From positions 95,973-159,972 of the forward strand of contig DATLQI010000038.1 in the NCBI GenBank assembly GCA_035535295.1: a stretch of DNA of 64,000 bases. Reading direction: 5' to 3'. The notes below the pieces were generated by a model. That model was given only the letters and a program-made list of their open reading frames with translations. It was not told where the DNA came from and did no database searches. The position numbers and the translations under genes are program-made. Below are positions 7,430 to 59,079 of the stretch, piece by piece. Positions within the stretch are counted from its first letter, which is position 1; each line of letters begins with the position of its first letter. This DNA comes from Solirubrobacterales bacterium. GTDB taxonomy: Bacteria > Actinomycetota > Thermoleophilia > Solirubrobacterales > 70-9.

Positions 7430-8422
7430 CTACCGCTCGGCGCCGGCCCGAGCCTTCGCCGGGCAACTGTCGACCGGTATCACGTTGTCGTACGGCCCAT
7501 TGGGGAGAGCGGTGGGCTTGTCACCTGCTTCCACCCTGAGCCCGTTCTGGCCGTTGACGAGGGAGCCGCAGATCGGCTTGCCGGTCGCCGGGGTGAACAG
7601 CACGGTGGCACCGGTCGCCCCCGATTCCGGTCCCGGCCCCGCCCAGGTTGCCGCCACCGCCCCCGCCAGCACGATTACCGCCACCACGGTGAGGACCCGG
7701 GACCAACGGAGCTGACCCTTGGCCGCTTCCGCGGACTCTCGCTCTGATCTGCGTAGAGCGGAGCCGCTCGGCCGTTCCAGGTTCTTCGGAGTCCCCTGTG
7801 CCGCGAGTGCGACCAAGACCGTCGCGATGACCGCGAGCGCGAAGGCCACCGTCAGCAGAGCGGCGGTCAGTCGCTGGACGTGGTCGGGCAGCTCGGCGAG
7901 TTCGTCGGGCCCCTTGATGACTAGAACAGTGGCGACGAGAGCCAGCAGGGCAGCCAGGGTCGCGGCCCATTTTTCTGCCGCGCCACGGACCTTGGTGAGG
8001 GTTTCGAACTCGAGCTCTTCCGCCCGTTTTTCCCACTTCGCCTCTCGCTCGCCGACCGGAGCAGGGCCGAGGACCTGCGGCTCCTTGCCCTTTGCGACTT
8101 CGATCTTCGCGCCCCAATAGGCGCCGCACCCCCTCGCCTCCGCAGGTCCCCCCGGATGCGGCATGTCGCAGTTGCAGCGAACCACGTAGCTCTCCGTCGT
8201 GGCCGGCGCGGCGGCGGTCGCCTCCTCCAGCACGATCACATCGTCGGCGATGAACTTCGTAGCCGGGTGATGGCAGACAGGACACTCCCCGACAAGCTCC
8301 CACCCGTCCTCCAACCGCTCCGGCTTCCACGCTTTCATCGCCTCGGCCCCCTCTCTGAACGAGGTCGCCTTGTAAGGCTTCGGTTTCGGCTCCTTAGCTT
8401 CATCCCGCGGCTCGGGGGTCAT
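7430..8422 (-). CDS. membrane protein with N-terminal Cys/His-rich segment, function unknown
   Basis: CPVCHH...CNCDMPH segment followed by 3-4 hydrophobic helices. Leaderless-type promoter lies directly upstream. Confidence 0.65.
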   Translation of the reverse strand: MTPEPRDEAKEPKPKPYKATSFREGAEAMKAWKPERLEDGWELVGECPVCHHPATKFIADDVIVLEEATAAAPATTESYVVRCNCDMPHPGGPAEARGCGAYWGAKIEVAKGKEPQVLGPAPVGEREAKWEKRAEELEFETLTKVRGAAEKWAATLAALLALVATVLVIKGPDELAELPDHVQRLTAALLTVAFALAVIATVLVALAAQGTPKNLERPSGSALRRSERESAEAAKGQLRWSRVLTVVAVIVLAGAVAATWAGPGPESGATGATVLFTPATGKPICGSLVNGQNGLRVEAGDKPTALPNGPYDNVIPVDSCPAKARAGAER

Positions 8423-8428
8423 GCGCCG

Positions 8429-8457
8429 AACTTATGCACACGATCAATTGCAGTCAA
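8429..8457 (-). promoter_or_regulatory. housekeeping-type promoter TTGACT-N17-TAAGTT, leaderless
   Basis: On the minus strand: TTGACT, 17 nt, TAAGTT, then 6 nt to the ATG at 8422. Confidence 0.55.
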
Positions 8458-8499
8458 GTACACACAATTTTGTCTTGGTAATCGTGTAGAGGGCGCTCA

Positions 8500-9111
8500 T
8501 CAAGGCCGGGTCGTGAGCACCATCGCGCAGTAACCCTCGGCGATCTCGGCTGACGAGAGGCGGCCGCCCGGCCGCACCCACTGCGGCGTGTAGTTGACCA
8601 TCCCCAGCAGGGCGAGGAGGGAGAGGCGGCGGTCGGCGAAGGTCATCGAGCCGTCGGCCTCACCGCGGGCGAGGACCTCGTCGAGGATCTTCTCGAAGGC
8701 CTGGCGCTGGGAGCGGACGCGGCGCCAGCGGGGCTCGCGCTCGATCGCCTGCCGCTCCTGGGTGAAAACGAGCATGTGGTGGCGGTGCTCGACCACGTGG
8801 TCGACCCAGGCCTCGACCAGGTCGCGCAGCTGCTGTACGGCCGGCGCTTCGGCGGTGAGGATCTCGCGGGCCTGGGCCAGCAGCGGTTCCAGCAGCTCGT
8901 CGCAGATCGCGATCAGGAGGTCGTCCTTGCCTTCGATGTAGTGGTAGAGGCCACCCGCGGCAAGCCCGGTCGCCTCGGTCAGCTCGCTCATCGAGGTGGA
9001 GTCGTAGCCGCGCTCGGCGAAGAGCTCGGCGGCGGTGGCGACGACTTGGCGGCGGCGGGCCTCATAGCGGGCGCGCAGGGCCGGGCGCGTGGGAGGGGAG
9101 GGAACCGGCAT
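8500..9111 (-). CDS. TetR-family transcriptional regulator
   Basis: HTH segment AAELFAERGYDSTSMSELTEATGLAAGGLYHYI. ATG at 9111 is preferred over the track start 9186, which would overlap the divergent gene. Confidence 0.85.
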   Translation of the reverse strand: MPVPSPPTRPALRARYEARRRQVVATAAELFAERGYDSTSMSELTEATGLAAGGLYHYIEGKDDLLIAICDELLEPLLAQAREILTAEAPAVQQLRDLVEAWVDHVVEHRHHMLVFTQERQAIEREPRWRRVRSQRQAFEKILDEVLARGEADGSMTFADRRLSLLALLGMVNYTPQWVRPGGRLSSAEIAEGYCAMVLTTRP

Positions 9112-15427: not shown

Positions 15428-15585
15428 CGTAGGTCCGAACCATTTGACGGCGCCCACCGAACCCTGAAAGGGTGCAGGGCTACCAGTCAAAGCCCCCGAT
15501 GAGCACCGTCGTAGCGAGTCTATCGCTATGTGACACGGATTCGTGTAATAAAAAGGTACTCGCGGGTGACCTTTGAGCGAAGAAA

Positions 15586-15618
15586 GGGCGCCCGTCGTGC
15601 GACGGGCGCCCTTTTCTC
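15586..15618 (-). terminator. intrinsic terminator (bidirectional stem GGGCGCCCGTC/GACGGGCGCCC)
   Basis: 11-bp perfect stem with a 4-nt loop, flanked by a T-run on the plus strand (TTTTCT) and TTTCTT on the minus strand. It lies 22 nt downstream of the 15640 stop. Confidence 0.75.
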
Positions 15619-15639
15619 AATCGGCTTTCGCGGTGCTGG

Positions 15640-37627: not shown

Positions 37628-38587
37628 ATGTCTCCCTCTTCCGCCGAGACCGCAAAAACCATCCTTGAAGGAGGGTTTTTGCGGTCTCGCGATGATGATC
37701 GCTGGTTGGCGGGGCTGGCCGAGCGGCAATACGGGGTGGTGGGCCGGTGGCAGTTGCTGGAGGCGGGGTGGAGCAGTGGGGCGATTGAGAAGCGCACCCG
37801 GAGTGGGCGGCTTCACCCCTTGTACGCGGGCGTGTACCGCGTGGGACACGGGGTGATCTCGCGCCAGGGCGGCTGGATGGCAGCGCTGCTTGCTACTGGG
37901 CCCGACGCGGTCCTCAGCCACTGGTCGGCTGCGGCTCTCTGGATGATCCGGCCGAACTCGCGGTCGGTCATCGACGTCACTACGCCTCACAAGAGCAGAA
38001 CCTGGGACGGGATCAGACGACACCACAAAGCGCTGCCGGCCGATGAGGTCACGGTGGAGGAGGGGCTACCGGTGACCGGTCCTTGCCGAACCGCCTTCGA
38101 TCTCGCGGCCACGGAGCCACTCGACCTGGTCGAGAACCTGATCCGGGAGATGGAATTCCGCCAGTTGTGGGACCGGCTCTCGCTCCCGGACTTGATCGAG
38201 CGTTATCCGGGGCGCCGGGGAGTCCGGAAGCTTCGACTCGCCCTGGAACGCCTCGAGGAAGATCCAGCCGGCCGCAAGCGCTCGCCCCTCGAGGAGCGCT
38301 TCAGCCCGTTCCTGCGCCGCCACCGCCTGTCCCTGCCGCGCTACAACGACTGGATCCTTCTCCCGAACGGCAAGCGCTACCAAGTCGACTGCCACTGGCC
38401 GGGCACCAACCAGATCGTCGAGCTGGACGGCTGGCAGGGCCACTCCACCAAGAGCGCCTTTCGCGACGACCGAGCTCGCGACCGCCGTCTTACCGCCGCC
38501 GGCTACACCGTCACCCACATCACCTGGAACCAGCTCGACGACGAACCGGAGGCAATCGCCGCCGACCTGCGGGCGCTGCTGCGCTAG
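37628..38587 (+). CDS. AbiEi-like N-terminal domain + DUF559 endonuclease-like domain protein
   Basis: GVVGRWQLLEAG...SHWSAAALW N-terminal pattern. C-terminal D...GY-V-HITW pattern. Confidence 0.7.
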   Translation: MSPSSAETAKTILEGGFLRSRDDDRWLAGLAERQYGVVGRWQLLEAGWSSGAIEKRTRSGRLHPLYAGVYRVGHGVISRQGGWMAALLATGPDAVLSHWSAAALWMIRPNSRSVIDVTTPHKSRTWDGIRRHHKALPADEVTVEEGLPVTGPCRTAFDLAATEPLDLVENLIREMEFRQLWDRLSLPDLIERYPGRRGVRKLRLALERLEEDPAGRKRSPLEERFSPFLRRHRLSLPRYNDWILLPNGKRYQVDCHWPGTNQIVELDGWQGHSTKSAFRDDRARDRRLTAAGYTVTHITWNQLDDEPEAIAADLRALLR

Positions 38588-45378: not shown

Positions 45379-45882
45379 ATGGCCACGGCCAACGACGTCG
45401 AGATCCGCGCGGCGACCGAGGAGGACGTCCAGGTCCTCTACGACCTGATCCTCGAGCTCGCCTCCTACGAGAAACTCGGCGACAAGGTCGCCGGGACCGC
45501 CGAGGCGCTGCACCGCTCCCTCTTCGAGCGTCAGGCGGCCGAGGCGCTGCTGCTGGAGACGAGCGACGGCGAAGCCGTCGGCTACGCGATCTTCTTCACC
45601 AACTTCTCCACCTTCGAGTGCCGGCCGGGCATCTGGCTCGAGGACGTCTACGTTCGCCCCGAGCACCGCCGCGGCGGCATCGGCCTGGCGGTGATGGAGC
45701 GCCTGGCGAGGATTGCCGAGGAGCGCGAGTACGCCCGCCTCGAATGGTGCGCCCTGGAGTGGAACGAGCCAGCCCTCGAGTTCTACGCCAAGCTCGGCGC
45801 CCGCCGCCTCGACGACTGGCGCATGCTGCGGCTCGAAGAGGACGGGATCAAGCGATTGGCTGCGGGGGAGGGGCATGGGTGA
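45379..45882 (+). CDS. GNAT N-acetyltransferase
   Basis: YVRPEHRRGGIG acetyl-CoA loop. The last four codons lie in a 29-bp inverted repeat arm. Confidence 0.85.
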   Translation: MATANDVEIRAATEEDVQVLYDLILELASYEKLGDKVAGTAEALHRSLFERQAAEALLLETSDGEAVGYAIFFTNFSTFECRPGIWLEDVYVRPEHRRGGIGLAVMERLARIAEEREYARLEWCALEWNEPALEFYAKLGARRLDDWRMLRLEEDGIKRLAAGEGHG

Positions 45883-45948
45883 CCCACCCCAGACACATCT
45901 CGCTATGGCTCGATGTTGAGTGTCTGGGGAGGGTCACCCATGCCCCTC
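45868..45948. repeat. 81-bp palindrome: 29-bp arms (28/29) spanning the stops of two convergent genes
   Basis: Left arm GAGGGGCATGGGTGACCCACCCCAGACAC. The reverse complement of the right arm is GAGGGGCATGGGTGACCCTCCCCAGACAC. 23-nt AT-richer loop. Both genes end in EGHG-stop inside the arms. Confidence 0.85.
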
Positions 45949-47187
45949 TGCACGCTGCAGTAGGAGGTCCTTCTCGCGGTCGTTGGTGGCCAGGGTCGCG
46001 GCTTTTCTAAATTCAGCTGCCGCTTCCTCGGGGCGGCCCGCTTTCTCGAGCAGGTCGCCGCGGACGCTGGGGAGGAGGTGGTACTGCGCCAGGGACGGGT
46101 CGTCTTCGATCTGCGTCAGGAGTTCGAGACCCGCCTCCGGGCCGAAGGCCATGCCCAGGGCTACCGCTCGGTTCAGCTCGACGACCGGAGAGGGGGCGAC
46201 CTGGGCCAGGGCCTCGTAGAGGGCGGCGATCCGCACCCAGTCGGTTTCCTCGGGCCGGATCGCCTGGGCGTGGCAGGCGGCGATTGCGGCTTGGAGGCCG
46301 TAGGGGCCGAGCGGGCCCGGCAGGGCTTCTGCTCGCTCCAACGCCCGTCGCCCGCGGACGACCAGGAGCGGGTCCCAGCGGCCGCGGTCCTGGTCGAGCA
46401 GCAGCACCGGCGCGCCGTCCGGTCCGCGGCGGGCGGCGCTGCGGGAGGCCTGGATCTCCATCAGCGCCACCAGCCCGTGCACCTCGGGCTCGGCCGGGGC
46501 CAGCTCGGCGAGGATCCGACCCAGGCGCAGCGCTTCCTCGCAGAGGTCGGTGCGAATCCAGTCCTCGCCGGCGCTCGCCGCATATCCCTCGTTGAAGACG
46601 AGGTAGATCACTTCCAGCACCGAGGGCAGGCGCTCGGCCAGCTCCGCCCCGCGCGGCACCTCGAACGGCACCTTGGCGTCGCGCAGGGTCCGCTTCGCCC
46701 GCACCAGCCGCTGCGCCACGGTCGGCTCTGGGGCGAGGAAGGCGCGGGCGATCTCCGGCGTCGTCAGCCCGCCGAGCAGGCGCAGGGTCAGCGCCACCCG
46801 CGCCTCGCGCGAGAGCAGCGGGTGGCAGCAGGTGAAGATCAGCGCCAGCAGGTCGTCGCCGATCTCGTCCTCGGCCGCCGCCTCGAAGTCCGAGCGCTCC
46901 ATCGCGAACATCGCCCCGGTCTCCCGCGCGACCTCTTCGCGCTTGCGCTGGTAGGTCTTCTCCCGCCGCAGGCGGTCGATCGCCCGGTTTTTCGCCGTCG
47001 CCATCAGCCAGGCGCCCGGGTTTTCCGGGACCCCGGCCTCCGGCCACTTCTCCAGTGCCGCCACCAGCGCGTCCTGCGCCAGGTCCTCGGCGAGGCCGAC
47101 GTCGCCGACCATCCGCGCCAGGCCGGCGACGAGGCGGGCGGACTCGATCCGCCAGACAGCCTCGATCGCGCGGGTGGCGTCGCTCAA
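45934..47187 (-). CDS. ECF-like sigma-70 family factor with long C-terminal domain (YCII-associated type)
   Basis: Region 2 (DLAQDALVAALEKWP) and region 4 (LTTPEIARAFL) patterns. About 230-aa C-terminal extension. Confidence 0.8.
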   Translation of the reverse strand: MSDATRAIEAVWRIESARLVAGLARMVGDVGLAEDLAQDALVAALEKWPEAGVPENPGAWLMATAKNRAIDRLRREKTYQRKREEVARETGAMFAMERSDFEAAAEDEIGDDLLALIFTCCHPLLSREARVALTLRLLGGLTTPEIARAFLAPEPTVAQRLVRAKRTLRDAKVPFEVPRGAELAERLPSVLEVIYLVFNEGYAASAGEDWIRTDLCEEALRLGRILAELAPAEPEVHGLVALMEIQASRSAARRGPDGAPVLLLDQDRGRWDPLLVVRGRRALERAEALPGPLGPYGLQAAIAACHAQAIRPEETDWVRIAALYEALAQVAPSPVVELNRAVALGMAFGPEAGLELLTQIEDDPSLAQYHLLPSVRGDLLEKAGRPEEAAAEFRKAATLATNDREKDLLLQRAEGHG

Positions 47188-47188
47188 G

Positions 47189-47584
47189 CTAGCCGCCGAA
47201 GTTCTCGCTGACGGCGTCCTGCACGTCCTGCGGGAAGTCCTCCATCTCGAAGACCCGCCGCACCTCGATCCTGCAGTTCTCGGCCGGGCAGCGGCTTGCC
47301 CACTCCAGCGCCTCCTCCTTCGAGCGGGCCTGGATCAGCCAGTAGCCGCCGACGACCTCCTTGGTCTCGGCGAACGGTCCGTCGGTGATCGTCGCCTTGC
47401 CATCGTCGATCGAGACGACGCCGCCCTCGCTCGGCGGCTGCAGCCCGTCCAGCGACAGCACCATCCCCGCCTTGCGCAGCTCCTCGTTGTAGCGGCTCAT
47501 CGCCTTGAACTCCTCGACGTTGTCGTCCTGCGGTCCCCAGTCCTTCTCCTCGATTTCGGGGTACATGAACATCATGAAACGCAT
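47189..47584 (-). CDS. YCII-related (DGPF) domain protein
   Basis: TDGPFAETKE-VGGYWLI pattern. RBS GAAGGAGA. Confidence 0.8.
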   Translation of the reverse strand: MRFMMFMYPEIEEKDWGPQDDNVEEFKAMSRYNEELRKAGMVLSLDGLQPPSEGGVVSIDDGKATITDGPFAETKEVVGGYWLIQARSKEEALEWASRCPAENCRIEVRRVFEMEDFPQDVQDAVSENFGG

Positions 47585-57180: not shown

Positions 57181-57297
57181 GCAGGCTTTGTAGAGAGGCG
57201 GCAAAGTATGCTCGCGCCTCTGGAATACGAGCCTCGACGTTCCTGGGGGCAGGCTGGAACTTTGAATACCTCAACCAATGACCGATCGGGGCTCCAA

Positions 57298-58098
57298 ATG
57301 TCCCTTCCCGCGCGGGCTGAGAACGTGGCGGTGGTCCGCCACGCCCTCGCCGGCCTGGCGGAACGCTTGGGAATGGATGAGGCGTCTCTCGCGGACCTGA
57401 AGACGGTCGTCACCGAGGCCTGCATGAACGTTGTCGTCCACGCCTACGCCGGCAGCGAGCCGGGGCCGCTGGAGGTCGAGGCCGAGAGCGATCTCGAGGG
57501 GCTCACGGTCGTGATCCGCGACCACGGCACCGGGATCAGGCCTCGCCCCGACGTTGAGCGCCCGAGCCTGCGGATCGGTCTGACTCTGATCGCCGCCCTC
57601 TCCAGCAGCTTCGAGATCAAAGGCGGGGCGGAAAAAGGCACCGAGATCCGCATGCACCTGCCGCTGCAGGCGCGCGAGAACGGCGCCGTCACCGGCTCCA
57701 CCTTCGCGGTGATGGCTGACGAGGAGACCCGGATCCGGGTCGGCCCGCCGGAGATCGTCGGCCCGGTCCTCAGCCGCGCCCTCTCCGCCCTCGCCGCCCG
57801 CCAGGACATCAGCGTCGACCGCCTCTCGGACACGATGCTGCTCAGCGACGCGATCTCCGCCCGGGCGCCCCAAGGCTTCACCGACGGCCACGTCTCCCTC
57901 AGCATCGCTGAGCTGCCGAAGGGGATCGAGCTCAAGGTCGGCCCGATGACCCACGGCGGCGCCGAGCGCCTCCGCGCCAGCTTCGAGCTTCCCGAGGTCG
58001 GCGGCTCCCTGGAGAAGCTGACCGACGAGCTGCGGGTCGAGGAGGGCGACGAAGGCGAGTACCTCGTCGTCGCCATCTCCTCGTTCTCGAAGAACTAA
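57298..58098 (+). CDS. anti-sigma-factor serine kinase-like protein (RsbW/SpoIIAB-type HATPase) with C-terminal extension
   Basis: ATG at 57298. VVTEACMNVVVHAY...DHGTGI pattern. Confidence 0.75.
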   Translation: MSLPARAENVAVVRHALAGLAERLGMDEASLADLKTVVTEACMNVVVHAYAGSEPGPLEVEAESDLEGLTVVIRDHGTGIRPRPDVERPSLRIGLTLIAALSSSFEIKGGAEKGTEIRMHLPLQARENGAVTGSTFAVMADEETRIRVGPPEIVGPVLSRALSALAARQDISVDRLSDTMLLSDAISARAPQGFTDGHVSLSIAELPKGIELKVGPMTHGGAERLRASFELPEVGGSLEKLTDELRVEEGDEGEYLVVAISSFSKN

Positions 58099-58113: not shown

Positions 58114-58239
58114 GAGGGGGTGCCGGTGGGGGTGCCCCGGAGCACCTCCGCCGCGTGACTTGTGGTTGGGCTGACGCCGCGAGCGGTATTGGCGCGGCTC
58201 CATGCTGAGTACCGGGACACCCCCACCGGCACCCCCCTC
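58114..58239. repeat. 126-bp imperfect palindrome between convergent anti-sigma and sigma genes
   Basis: Left arm GAGGGGGTGCCGGTGGGGGTGCCCCGG (58114..58140). The reverse complement of 58212..58239 is GAGGGGGGTGCCGGTGGGGGTGTCCCGG. The 71-nt spacer contains further GGAGC/GCTCC pairing. Confidence 0.75.
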
Positions 58240-58257: not shown

Positions 58258-59079
58258 TTACTCGGTCTCAGTGGTCGCGGCGCCGCTTTGCTCGGCGACC
58301 TCGGCGCGGATGCGCTCCAGGGTGCGGCGGAGGATGCGGGAGACGTGCATCTGGGAGTGGCCGATCCGCTCGGCGATCTGCGACTGGGTGAGATCCTCGA
58401 CGAAGCGGAGCTGGAGGACGAGGCGCTCGCGCTCGTCGAGGTGGGGGAGGGCTCCCTCGAGGGCGAGTTTGTCCTCGACCAGCTCGTAGCCGGTGTCCTC
58501 GTCTCCGACCCACTCCGAGGCCGGCGATTCTTCCGCGTCCTCGCCGCCGACGGGGCGGTCGAGTGAGAGCGGTCGCCGGTTGTGGTTGGCCTCGAGCACC
58601 TCGAGCACGTCGGTAGGGTCGACCTCGAGCCGCTCGGCGATCTCGGTGACCGAAGGGGAGCGCTGCAGCTGCACGGTCAGCTCGGAGATCGCTTTCTCGA
58701 CTTCGGCCATGCGGTCGTGGAGGCCGCGGGGGACGCGGACGGTCCAGACCCGGTCGCGGAAGTGGCGCTTCAGCTCACCGAGGATCGTCGGCGAGGCGAA
58801 GGCAGTGAAGGGAGCGCCGCGATCGGGGTCGAAACGGTCGATCGCGTTGACGAGGCCGAGGCTCGCCACCTGCAGGAGGTCGTCGAAGGACTCGCTGGCG
58901 CCGCGGTAACGCAGGGCCAGGTTTTTCGCGAAGGGCAGATAGCGGCGGACCAGCTCCTCGCGGATCGCGGGATCGCGGTCTTTGACGAAGCGCGCCCAGA
59001 GCACGCGCTCGCTTGCCAGGCCCTCACCGGGACCCGGGCTCGACTGGTCTGCGCTTTTCGGCGTCTCTTCCCTGTTCAC
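58258..59079 (-). CDS. SigB/SigF/SigG-family (group 3) RNA polymerase sigma factor
   Basis: Region 2 (FDDLLQVASLGLVNAIDRFDP), region 3, and region 4 (LTQSQIAERIGHSQMHVSRIL). Confidence 0.9.
   Translation of the reverse strand: MNREETPKSADQSSPGPGEGLASERVLWARFVKDRDPAIREELVRRYLPFAKNLALRYRGASESFDDLLQVASLGLVNAIDRFDPDRGAPFTAFASPTILGELKRHFRDRVWTVRVPRGLHDRMAEVEKAISELTVQLQRSPSVTEIAERLEVDPTDVLEVLEANHNRRPLSLDRPVGGEDAEESPASEWVGDEDTGYELVEDKLALEGALPHLDERERLVLQLRFVEDLTQSQIAERIGHSQMHVSRILRRTLERIRAEVAEQSGAATTETE

What the first reader, a model, noticed from the sequence alone, without database searches (positions are those of the whole stretch)
45868..45948. 81-bp near-perfect palindrome supplies the last four codons and the stop codon of both convergent genes
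Arms of 29 bp (28/29 complementary) flank a 23-nt AT-richer loop.

The GNAT gene (+) ends GAG GGG CAT GGG TGA inside the left arm. The ECF-like sigma gene (-) ends with the same 15 nt inside the right arm. Both proteins therefore terminate in EGHG-stop.

This is far beyond chance. It suggests either a MITE-like palindromic element inserted at the junction that replaced both native C-termini, or a bidirectional terminator that has been absorbed into both coding regions.
Basis: seen in the sequence. Interest (0 to 1): 0.65.

Follow-up and report, generated by a model that had tools for sequence, protein, structure and literature searches.

The report
Conserved gene-end hairpin element family
The palindrome is real and is one copy of a previously undescribed family of strongly structured hairpin elements that sit at gene ends in soil Solirubrobacterales-type actinobacteria; here a copy landed where two convergent genes overlapped and now supplies the same four-residue tail and stop codon to both proteins.

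Summary
Observation confirmed: the arms are 45868-45896 and 45920-45948, 28/29 complementary, with a 23-nt loop. The GNAT (+) and sigma (-) ORFs both end EGHG-TGA inside their proximal arm.

It is not a one-off. The same hairpin occurs in 6 MAG species and in at least 119 soil-metagenome loci (57 independent genomic sites). The apex is nearly invariant and asymmetric: bulge UCAAC, three covarying pairs, tandem G.A, a small loop. The 28-29-bp stem differs between copies but stays 95% paired, with 25/35 pairs covarying. There is no Rfam match and no match in plasmids, phages or viral contigs.

Copies lie at gene 3' ends: convergent junctions are enriched about 2x and divergent ones depleted about 7x. 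They follow core genes such as fdxA, glnA, amt, yebC and relA.

Relatives without the element have sigma and GNAT ORFs overlapping by 23-29 nt. Relatives with it carry identical, co-varying tails (EGHG, ERDG, EGDG, EGEG). The tails are therefore dictated by the stem, not by the proteins.

Function is inferred, not shown. It is most likely a REP/TRIT-like gene-end hairpin acting on single-stranded nucleic acid. There is no U-tract. The fold is optimised on one strand (G.U 36 vs 5), which is often antisense to the abutting gene. This is unexplained.

The parts
45868..45948 (.). Core of the element: an 81-nt hairpin/palindrome with a 29-bp stem and a 23-nt apex.
45862..45954 (-). Full match to the family covariance model R1. 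The minus strand is the 'TCAAC' strand on which the fold is optimised, and it is the sense strand of the sigma gene.
   Evidence: 96.2 bits (E 5e-18) on the - strand and 55.5 bits on the + strand. The next best hits in the window score about 20 bits.
45920..45948 (-). 5' arm of the fold on the TCAAC (minus) strand. It carries sigma's last four codons and its stop: GAG GGG CAT GGG TGA.
45897..45919 (-). Conserved asymmetric apex. On the minus strand it reads UCAAC (bulge), AUC / GAU (covarying pairs), G.A/A.G tandem, GC/GC, and loop CAUA.
   Evidence: The apex is invariant in 6 of 6 copies that were found through an arm-only pattern.
45868..45896 (-). 3' arm of the fold on the TCAAC strand. On the + strand it carries GNAT's last four codons and its stop.
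45880..45882 (+). TGA stop codon of the GNAT gene, inside the stem (GGGTGACCC).
45934..45936 (-). TGA stop codon of the sigma gene, inside the stem.
45379..45882 (+). GNAT acetyltransferase gene. Its last 12 coding nt plus the stop are supplied by the element.
   Evidence: Orthologues carry PF00583.
45934..47187 (-). ECF-type sigma factor gene (Sigma70_r2, Sigma70_r4_2, DUF6596). Its last 12 coding nt plus the stop are supplied by the element. It lies downstream of a YCII gene (47189..47584).

Best explanation
SHOWN: what the element is.
- The palindrome is one copy of a lineage-specific family of structured hairpin elements, about 81-95 nt long. The family occurs in Solirubrobacterales-type soil Actinomycetota.
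- Each copy has a 28-29-bp G/C-rich stem. The stem sequence drifts from copy to copy but stays complementary.
- The stem is capped by an almost invariant, asymmetric apex: a 5-nt bulge UCAAC, three covarying pairs, a tandem G.A, a GC(C) mini-stem and a 3-5-nt loop.
- Copies occupy the very short spacers at gene 3' ends. They persist at orthologous sites in different species, with compensatory changes in the stem.

SHOWN: what happened at this locus.
- A copy sits exactly where relatives have a 23-29-nt overlap of the convergent sigma and GNAT ORFs.
- The stem of this copy contains GGGTGACCC. Each ORF therefore reads 12 nt into its proximal arm and stops at that TGA.
- As a result both proteins carry the same four-residue tail, and the tail co-varies with the stem in orthologues.

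INFERRED: how it works.
- The element works as a folded single strand at gene ends, most likely in transcripts.
- The very stable hairpin would delimit or insulate neighbouring transcription units and block 3'-to-5' exonucleases, much as REP elements do.
- The conserved apex would serve as the docking site for a lineage-specific factor.
- The fold is optimised on the strand that here is the sigma sense strand.
- Both stop codons lie inside the stem. Ribosomes finishing either gene must therefore melt the hairpin, which couples its formation to translation.
For: Family and spread.
- An arm-only pattern found 6 MAG species, in four different gene contexts, all with the same apex.
- In the source DNA runs, loop words are 8-13x deeper than the flanks.

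Structure.
- In 106 distinct copies, 94.9% of cells are paired, against 75.9% in shuffles and 44-54% in slid controls.
- There are 673 double-sided changes against 185 in shuffles, and 25 of 35 pairs covary.
- The stem ends sharply at 28-29 bp.

Strand-specific fold.
- G.U wobbles number 42 vs 5 over all copies and 36 vs 5 at site level (p 8e-7).
- Purine-purine mismatches outnumber pyrimidine-pyrimidine mismatches 32 to 16.
- The TCAAC strand is the more stable one in 88 of 106 copies.

Gene-end location.
- With the element, junctions are tandem 56, convergent 36, divergent 3. Without it they are 368, 123 and 143.
- The median gap is 105-115 nt with the element and 23-28 nt without.
- The genes in front of the element are core genes: YebC, acyl-CoA dehydrogenase, ferredoxin, Amt, two glutamine synthetases, RelA/SpoT, NuoN-like, SMC and PriA.
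- Orthologous sites in 3-5 species keep the element with different stems.

This locus.
- Empty sites L127 and L129 have overlapping ORFs and no hairpin.
- Of 120 sigma orthologues, 61 end (E/G)xxG; the rest end SRAARR, RAAHMA and so on.
- The tails of the two proteins are identical at every filled site: EGHG, ERDG, EGDG, and EGEG twice.

Transcription.
- Family loop words occur in soil and wood-decay metatranscriptome contigs.
Against: - There is no U-tract on either strand, so canonical intrinsic termination is unlikely.
- In mycobacteria the analogous TRIT hairpins overlap few mapped 3' ends (bioRxiv 10.1101/2022.06.01.494293).
- No stranded RNA data exist for any copy. The metatranscriptome contigs run through the hairpin and could be DNA carry-over.
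- The strand on which the fold is optimised is antisense to both neighbouring genes at 16 of 22 independent tandem sites.
- Where two copies sit between convergent genes, each shows its other sense to the gene it abuts. A plain mRNA 3'-UTR model does not predict either of these last two observations.
- Perfect complementarity could in part be kept by template-switch conversion between the arms rather than by selection.
- At tandem junctions the next start codon often follows within 4-57 nt. The element therefore cannot be an efficient terminator in that sense.
Confidence: 0.5

Rival explanations
1. Selfish REP/MITE-like mobile element. A trans-acting transposase (RAYT/IS200-type, or unknown) recognises the folded TCAAC strand as single-stranded DNA and copies the hairpin to new sites. 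Gene ends are simply where insertions are tolerated. The host gets no function from it.
For: - The family is dispersed and multi-copy.
- The element is present or absent at the sigma/GNAT junction among close relatives.
- It adds about 85-90 nt to otherwise 23-28-nt spacers.
- It avoids divergent (promoter) spacers.
- The strand-specific wobble pattern fits recognition of one DNA strand.
- Sister hairpins with the same stem design but other apical inserts exist, resembling deletion or insertion derivatives.
Against: - Copies are not near-identical. Stems differ at almost every variable position, which argues against recent bursts.
- Orthologous sites keep the element across species, with in-situ compensatory changes.
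- No target-site duplication is visible (A2).
- No transposase lies next to any copy examined; between the paired L018 copies the only long ORF (7977..8585, 202 aa) was read by eye as a PaiB-like regulator, without a family search.
- There are no hits in viral, phage or plasmid collections.
- These genomes are very compact, and neutral 90-nt inserts should be lost.
Confidence: 0.2
2. DNA-level site. The palindrome extrudes as a cruciform or is bound as duplex DNA by a dimeric protein, for example gyrase as at REP/BIME, a nucleoid protein, or a replication or recombination factor. The site would relieve or organise topology at the ends of transcription units.
For: - The inverted repeat CCAGACAC...GTGTCTGG is conserved in both arms.
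- The element lies at gene ends, where transcription-driven supercoils accumulate.
- There is no terminator-type U-tract.
- REP/BIME elements bind gyrase and IHF (own knowledge).
Against: - A duplex or cruciform site should tolerate the two transition types equally. The observed 36:5 wobble bias and the G.A tandem on one strand only point to one folded strand.
- The outer 20 bp of the stem are free to vary as long as they pair. This is unusual for a sequence-specific duplex-binding site.
Confidence: 0.12
3. One-way insulator or antisense-directed element. The functional molecule is the TCAAC-sense transcript. The hairpin stops or processes RNA polymerases or RNAs that run towards the 3' end of the abutting gene (convergent read-through or antisense transcription). 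It lets sense transcription pass.
For: - The fold is optimised on the strand antisense to the abutting gene in every context class.
- Paired copies between convergent genes each face the opposing gene's transcription in TCAAC sense.
- At tandem sites in GTTGA sense the next start codon follows closely, which implies read-through in that sense.
- Convergent junctions are enriched.
Against: - There is no known source of antisense transcription at the 16 tandem sites.
- The orientation bias (16:6, p 0.05) and the spacing differences (p 0.06-0.13) are weak after collapsing orthologues.
- There is no U-tract in this sense either.
- No RNA data are available.
Confidence: 0.12
4. Ordinary bidirectional intrinsic terminator that drifted into both coding regions.
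For: - The hairpin is very stable and lies between convergent genes.
Against: - There is no U-tract on either side, here or in the family.
- Canonical U-tract terminators do exist in this genome and look different (window 15571-15626).
- The conserved 23-31-nt apex and the family-wide homology are not features of ordinary terminators.
- Empty sites show an insertion-type difference, not gradual absorption.
Confidence: 0.04
5. Chance palindrome or assembly artefact.
For: - Short-read unitigs break inside the loop.
Against: - No shuffle reproduces the arm match or the fold.
- Independent assemblies and more than 100 homologous copies exist.
- The arms match each other although each copy has a unique stem.
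Confidence: 0.01

Closest known systems
TRIT ('Tuberculosis Rho-independent terminator') hairpins of Mycobacterium (Gardner et al. 2011, PMC3152330)
   Same: - Lineage-restricted family in Actinomycetota.
- Conserved in both sequence and structure, palindromic, and without a canonical U-tract.
- Tens to about 150 copies.
- Narrowly positioned at stop codons and often reaching into the coding sequence (around -8). The authors proposed a factor that binds the conserved motif.
   Different: - The host order and the sequence differ.
- Here the loop is the conserved part and the stem is variable.
- The apex and the wobble pattern are strand-asymmetric, whereas TRITs were described as mostly bidirectional.
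- TRIT function is itself unproven, with little overlap with Term-seq 3' ends.
- Homology could not be tested because no TRIT model was available.
REP / BIME elements of Enterobacteria and Pseudomonas (with RAYT transposases)
   Same: - Dispersed imperfect palindromes in spacers at gene 3' ends and within operons.
- Enriched between convergent genes.
- Act as exonuclease barriers and can influence translation when close to stop codons (own knowledge: Higgins/Newbury 1980s; Liang, Rudd & Deutscher 2015).
- Orientation-specific single-strand recognition by RAYT (own knowledge).
   Different: - REPs are 20-40 nt, carry a 5' GTAG, have conserved stems, and number in the hundreds.
- This element is 81 nt or more, has no GTAG, has variable covarying stems and a conserved 23-31-nt apex.
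- No RAYT has been identified.
MITEs such as Correia (Neisseria), ERIC, RUP/BOX
   Same: - Small non-autonomous repeats that can fold.
- They insert next to genes and can donate stop codons, terminators or promoters.
- Insertion polymorphism between relatives.
   Different: - MITEs have conserved terminal inverted repeats, target-site duplications and near-identical recent copies. None of these is seen here.
Integron attC sites
   Same: - Imperfect palindromes directly after the stop codon of a gene.
- Structure is conserved more than sequence.
- The folded, functional strand is the bottom (template) strand of the upstream gene. This is the same odd geometry as here.
- The bulge heptamer ACTCAAC even fits RYYYAAC.
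   Different: - attC has R''/R' boxes paired at the base of the stem, extrahelical bases and a variable centre.
- attC sites occur in cassette arrays next to an integrase.
- Here the conserved part is apical, the heptamer is single and unpaired, and the neighbours are core genes.
I-shaped (U-tract-less) hairpin 'terminators' of high-G+C Actinomycetota
   Same: - GC-rich hairpin at a gene end without a U-tract.
   Different: - Those are not homologous to one another.
- Mycobacterial RNA polymerase needs a U-tract in vitro (PMC3993855, title/abstract).
- The present elements share a conserved apex and stem design.

Membership tests
REP/BIME | Dispersed extragenic imperfect palindromes at gene 3' ends, many copies per genome | tested here: met
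   There are 57 independent sites, and some contigs of 33-141 kb hold 2 copies. Loop words are 8-13x deeper than the flanks in the source sample. Junction bias is shown. The per-genome copy number (tens) is only estimated.
REP/BIME | Conserved 5' GTAG tetranucleotide and a conserved 20-40-nt stem sequence | tested here: not met
   The position matrix of 121 copies shows no GTAG. The stems are 28-29 bp and vary with covariation.
REP/BIME | Cognate RAYT (IS200-like Y1) transposase in the genome | not testable with these tools
   No whole genome was available. No such gene was seen next to the copies examined.
TRIT (Mycobacterium) | Conserved palindromic hairpin family tightly placed at or over stop codons | tested here: met
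   The stem base lies -15 to +16 nt from the abutting stop codon at most sites. At three sites an ORF ends at the TGA inside the stem: the sigma/GNAT junction, L035 and L038.
TRIT (Mycobacterium) | TRIT sequence motif / covariance model match; restricted to Mycobacterium | not testable with these tools
   There is no TRIT model in Rfam 15 and no Rfam hit at all. The hosts here are Solirubrobacterales-type MAGs.
MITE | Conserved terminal inverted repeats and target-site duplication | tested here: not met
   The outer arm sequence differs in nearly every copy. The filled-versus-empty alignment A2 shows no duplication.
MITE | Related autonomous transposon sharing the ends | not tested
   None was seen in about 0.8 Mb of loci by eye. 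No systematic search was made.
Canonical intrinsic terminator | GC-rich hairpin followed at once by a 7-9-nt U-tract | tested here: not met
   The flanks are C-rich (TCAAC sense) or mixed (other sense). The consensus scan calls no terminator at the palindrome. U-tract terminators are rare overall: 29 of 669 gene ends.
Integron attC | R''/R' core sites paired at the stem base, extrahelical bases, cassette array with integrase | tested here: not met
   Only one RYYYAAC-like heptamer is present, and it lies unpaired in the apical bulge. The neighbours are core genes.
Any Rfam 15 family | Score at or above the gathering threshold | tested here: not met
   There were no hits at the gathering threshold in the window or in 13 loci. 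In E-value mode only generic miRNA-precursor hairpin models hit, all below threshold.

The most novel reading that the evidence does not exclude
The element is a new class of strand-specific gene-end element. Its functional fold lies on the strand antisense to the gene it abuts. It would be either a one-way insulator that stops convergent or antisense transcription at the exact 3' border of a gene while letting sense transcription through, or a single-stranded-DNA structure of the template strand read by an unknown lineage-specific protein that docks on the invariant apex (UCAAC bulge plus tandem G.A).
Probability: 0.3. Interest if true: 0.75.

Novelty: new variant of a known kind. Interest (0 to 1): 0.6.

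Why it matters
Solirubrobacterales are among the most abundant soil actinobacteria, yet almost nothing is known about how their genes are punctuated. Canonical U-tract terminators are rare in these genomes: about 4% of gene ends in the loci read here.

The family reported here has very strong covariation, an invariant apex and a clear strand preference. It gives a concrete handle on two things: non-canonical gene-end signals in high-G+C bacteria, and the unresolved TRIT question in mycobacteria.

The sigma/GNAT junction is also a clean natural example of a nucleic-acid structure dictating protein sequence. Two unrelated proteins carry the same four-residue tail, and that tail changes in step in both proteins as the stem covaries.

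Tried and rejected
- Further copies of the arm in the window: none at up to 3 mismatches.
- Other family members in the window by covariance model: only generic hairpins, plus one related 'type C' hairpin.
- Rfam at gathering and E-value thresholds, on the whole window, on the region, on the apex alone and on 13 loci: nothing meaningful.
- Viral contigs, phage and plasmid collections: no match.
- RNA runs for the window: none.
- RNA contigs at the ferredoxin locus L043 came from relatives and did not resolve transcript ends.
- Metatranscriptome contigs with the loop run through the hairpin and carry no strand information.
- Test of whether the element replaces canonical terminators: uninformative, because such terminators are rare with or without it (3/127 vs 29/669, p 0.46).
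- SECIS-like reading (UGA followed by a hairpin): rejected, because most copies lack TGA in the stem.
- attC reading: rejected on architecture.
- REPtron idea for the paired copies in L018: rejected, because the only long ORF between them (7977..8585, 202 aa) looks like a PaiB-like regulator rather than a transposase. This was judged from its sequence by eye; no family search was run.
- Promoter (-10/-35) readings of the flank motif CGACAG and of the loop GTTGAG: no convincing fit.
- Orientation and spacing asymmetries looked strong on raw counts (44:13). They weakened after collapsing orthologous sites (16:6, p 0.05; spacing p 0.06-0.13) and are reported as suggestive only.
- Literature searches for a description in Solirubrobacterales or Conexibacter: nothing found.
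A loop scan of isolate genomes was therefore not possible.

Full report
OBSERVATION

- The arms are 45868-45896 and 45920-45948, 29 nt each, 28/29 complementary, separated by 23 nt.
- The GNAT ORF 45379..45882 (+) ends GEGHG-TGA. The sigma ORF 45934..47187 (-) ends AEGHG-TGA.
- Each ORF uses bases 1-15 of its proximal arm.
- No shuffle of the window gives a second match to the arm.
- Both strands fold far better than shuffles: -77 and -74 kcal/mol, z about -8.
- Two DNA runs from soil hold the locus. Their unitigs break inside the loop, where word depth jumps from 46 to 380-605. This already shows that the loop is a multi-copy repeat in the sample.

NOT A ONE-OFF

A scan of one genome per species with an arm pattern (TGGGTGACCCNCCCCAGACAC) returned six Solirubrobacterales or 'uncultured Actinomycetes' MAGs, plus one chance hit.
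- Each of the six carries one such palindrome.
- The copies lie in four different gene contexts.
- All six have the same loop.

It returned none in viral contigs. Several contigs hold two copies. After clustering by flanks, the 131 copies represent 57 independent genomic sites. A covariance model built from 106 distinct copies finds only this one copy in the 64-kb window: 96 bits on the minus strand and 55 on the plus strand.

ANATOMY

I orient the element by its loop and call this the 'TCAAC strand'. In the window it is the minus strand, which is the sigma sense strand. On that strand the element reads:
- a 5' arm of about 25 variable nt with the design GGAGGGG-NC-GGG-NNN-CCC-TCTCC-AG;
- ACAC;
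- a 5-nt bulge UCAAC;
- three pairs that covary (AUC/GAU, CAC/GUG, CGC/GCG, CCC/GGG, CUC/GAG);
- a tandem G.A/A.G;
- GC(C)/G(G)C;
- a 3-5-nt loop;
- GUGU and the 3' arm;
- a short C-rich tail.

Across the 106 copies:
- 94.9% of cells are standard pairs, against 75.9% in shuffles and 44-54% with slid partners.
- There are 673 double-sided changes against 185 in shuffles.
- 25 of 35 pairs covary.
- Several stem positions show all four Watson-Crick pair types with almost no mismatches.
- The stem stops sharply at 28-29 bp.

Apex conservation is not only an artefact of the search pattern. The six copies found through the arm alone all have the apex. So do most extra copies found in flanks by the model. 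Two of those extra copies carry a compensatory ACAC/GUGU to GCAC/GUGC change.

STRAND ASYMMETRY

The fold is better on the TCAAC strand.
- In stem positions 1-22, G.U wobbles number 42 on that strand and 5 on the other. At site level the count is 36 vs 5 (p 8e-7). The bias holds in every context class.
- Mismatches are mostly purine-purine on that strand, 32 vs 16.
- The tandem G.A exists only there.
- That strand is the more stable one in 88 of 106 copies.
- The usual mutational asymmetries (C-to-T on the non-template or lagging-template strand) would give the opposite sign.

I read this as selection on one folded single strand, either RNA or DNA.

CONTEXT

These genomes are compact. In the loci read, median spacers are 28 nt (tandem) and 23 nt (convergent) without the element, and 105-115 nt with it. 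The element is therefore an add-on of about 85-90 nt.
- With the element, junctions are 56 tandem, 36 convergent and 3 divergent.
- Without it they are 368, 123 and 143.

This is a gene-end signature.

The genes in front of it are core genes: YebC, acyl-CoA dehydrogenase, ferredoxin, ammonium transporter, two glutamine synthetases, RelA/SpoT, a NuoN-like subunit, SMC and PriA. The same site is occupied in 3-5 species with different, still complementary stems.

Neither flank is U-rich. Canonical U-tract terminators exist (window 15571-15626) but are rare, with or without the element.

At tandem junctions the TCAAC strand is antisense to both genes at 16 of 22 sites (p 0.05). The next start codon often follows within 4-57 nt. 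Where two copies lie between convergent genes (L026, L050, L069), each turns its other sense to the gene it abuts.

THIS JUNCTION

The sigma factor has 120 listed orthologues at 85-100% identity.
- 61 end (E/G)xxG, mostly RRAEG[HDGQE]G.
- The others end SRAARR, RAAHMA, ARPGA and so on.

In two 'other' loci (L127, L129) the same YCII-sigma / GNAT arrangement is present without any hairpin. There the two ORFs overlap by 23 and 29 nt. Aligning filled and empty sites shows a clean difference of about 85-95 nt. It lies exactly between sigma's ...RA codons and GNAT's ...LA(A/G) codons. No target duplication is visible.

At every filled site the last four residues of the two proteins are the same, and they change together:
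- EGHG/EGHG in the window;
- ERDG/ERDG in L004;
- EGDG/EGDG in L005;
- EGEG/EGEG in L070 and L132.

The variable third codon is a covarying stem position. The tails are therefore a by-product of base pairing. The stop codons come from the GGGTGACCC version of the stem, which necessarily reads TGA on both strands. Upstream ORFs at two other sites (L035, L038) also end in that TGA.

WHAT IT IS AND HOW IT PROBABLY WORKS

Shown:
- a dispersed, lineage-specific, structurally constrained hairpin family at gene ends;
- one copy inserted into the overlap of two convergent genes, which now provides both C-termini.

Inferred: it acts as a folded single strand. My preferred reading (about 0.5) is a REP/TRIT-like gene-end element in transcripts. 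It would be a very stable hairpin that delimits or insulates adjacent transcription units and protects 3' ends, with the invariant apex as a docking site for a lineage-specific factor. In the window both stops lie inside the stem, so terminating ribosomes must open it.

The strand paradox keeps three rivals alive:
- a one-way, antisense-directed insulator (0.12);
- a selfish ssDNA-mobilised repeat (0.2);
- a DNA-level protein or cruciform site (0.12).

A plain bidirectional intrinsic terminator is unlikely (0.04).

COMPARISON WITH KNOWN SYSTEMS

- The nearest analogue is TRIT of Mycobacterium: 147 conserved palindromic hairpins centred about 8 nt inside the stop codon (PMC3152330). Its terminator role is not borne out by Term-seq.
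- REP/BIME share the location and the likely RNA-end role. They differ in size, in the GTAG motif, in having conserved stems, and in the RAYT link.
- MITE criteria (conserved terminal repeats, target duplication) are not met.
- attC sites share the odd 'folded template strand right after a stop codon' geometry, but not the architecture.
- Nothing in Rfam 15 matches, and I found no description in the literature.

I therefore rate it as a new variant of a known kind.

LIMITS

- There are no stranded RNA data for any copy.
- There is no whole-genome census.
- Gene calls come from my own GC3-based caller. It reproduced the window's genes but misses some small genes.
- Orientation and spacing biases are only suggestive once orthologues are collapsed.

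Noticed in passing
window 58116-58236: A second long G/C-rich hairpin: 25-bp arms, 96% complementary, with a 71-nt structured insert (-92.9 kcal/mol, z -5.5). It lies between convergent ORFs 57208..58098 (+) and 58258..59079 (-). It is homologous to 'type C' hairpins in L061:320-448, L099:6647-6763 and L057:6215-6330. These share the stem design of the studied family but have a different, larger apex.
   Followed up: partly
L065:3609-3687, L065:3728-3806, L073:9145-9223, L082:3437-3515, L086:9350-9428: 'Type B' sister hairpins of about 79 nt. They have the same G-run/C-run stem and CC(A/G)GAC top, but a short conserved loop CTCCCCGCTGTTG. This suggests a superfamily with interchangeable apical modules.
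   Followed up: no
window 15571-15626: A canonical intrinsic terminator with an upstream A-tract and a downstream T-tract (GGGCGCCCGTCG-TGC-GACGGGCGCCC-TTTTCT). U-tract terminators therefore exist in this organism, although only about 4% of gene ends in the loci have one.
   Followed up: partly
window 37645-37689: A 22-bp near-perfect hairpin with a 1-nt loop (CGAGACCGCAAAAACCATCCTT / AAGGAGGGTTTTTGCGGTCTCG). It is unrelated in sequence to the family.
   Followed up: no
5' flank of copies (TCAAC sense), e.g. L041:519-530, L016, L026, L050, L111: The motif [CG]TGTC(G) sits at a fixed position 3-4 nt before the stem in 21% of copies, against 2% background. It repeats the GTGTC at the top of the 3' arm. 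Some copies extend the motif to CGACAG-N(7-8)-GGCAGAC on the other strand. Its meaning is unknown.
   Followed up: partly
L026:4893-4966, L050:4027-4134, L069:10535-10610; also L016 and L111: The spacer between paired, oppositely oriented copies is conserved across species (…CGACAGAGCTCCGGCAGACG…GCTGCCGTG…). It has no Rfam match and could be a small RNA or a regulatory region.
   Followed up: no
window 45897-45919 (+ strand) and all copies: On the GTTGA strand the apex contains a five-codon mini-ORF, AUG GCU CGN NGU UGA (MARC*/MARG*). It is probably incidental.
   Followed up: no
L043:9987-10131 and L065:5085-5230: c-di-AMP (ydaO/yuaA) riboswitches lie within about 0.6 kb (L043) and 1.3-3.7 kb (L065) of family or sister hairpins. 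In L043 the riboswitch-controlled gene converges on the ferredoxin gene, with the element between them.
   Followed up: no
L128:829-2214: In one relative, a DDE transposase sits next to the YCII-sigma operon. There sigma has a longer, unrelated tail, and the GNAT gene is displaced by about 0.9 kb.
   Followed up: no
window 45889-45927 in DNA runs X1 and X2: The short-read unitig graph breaks in the loop, and summed word depth there is 8-13 times that of the flanks. This is a caution that contigs of this lineage may end or be mis-joined at these elements. For example, L130's contig ends inside the palindrome.
   Followed up: partly
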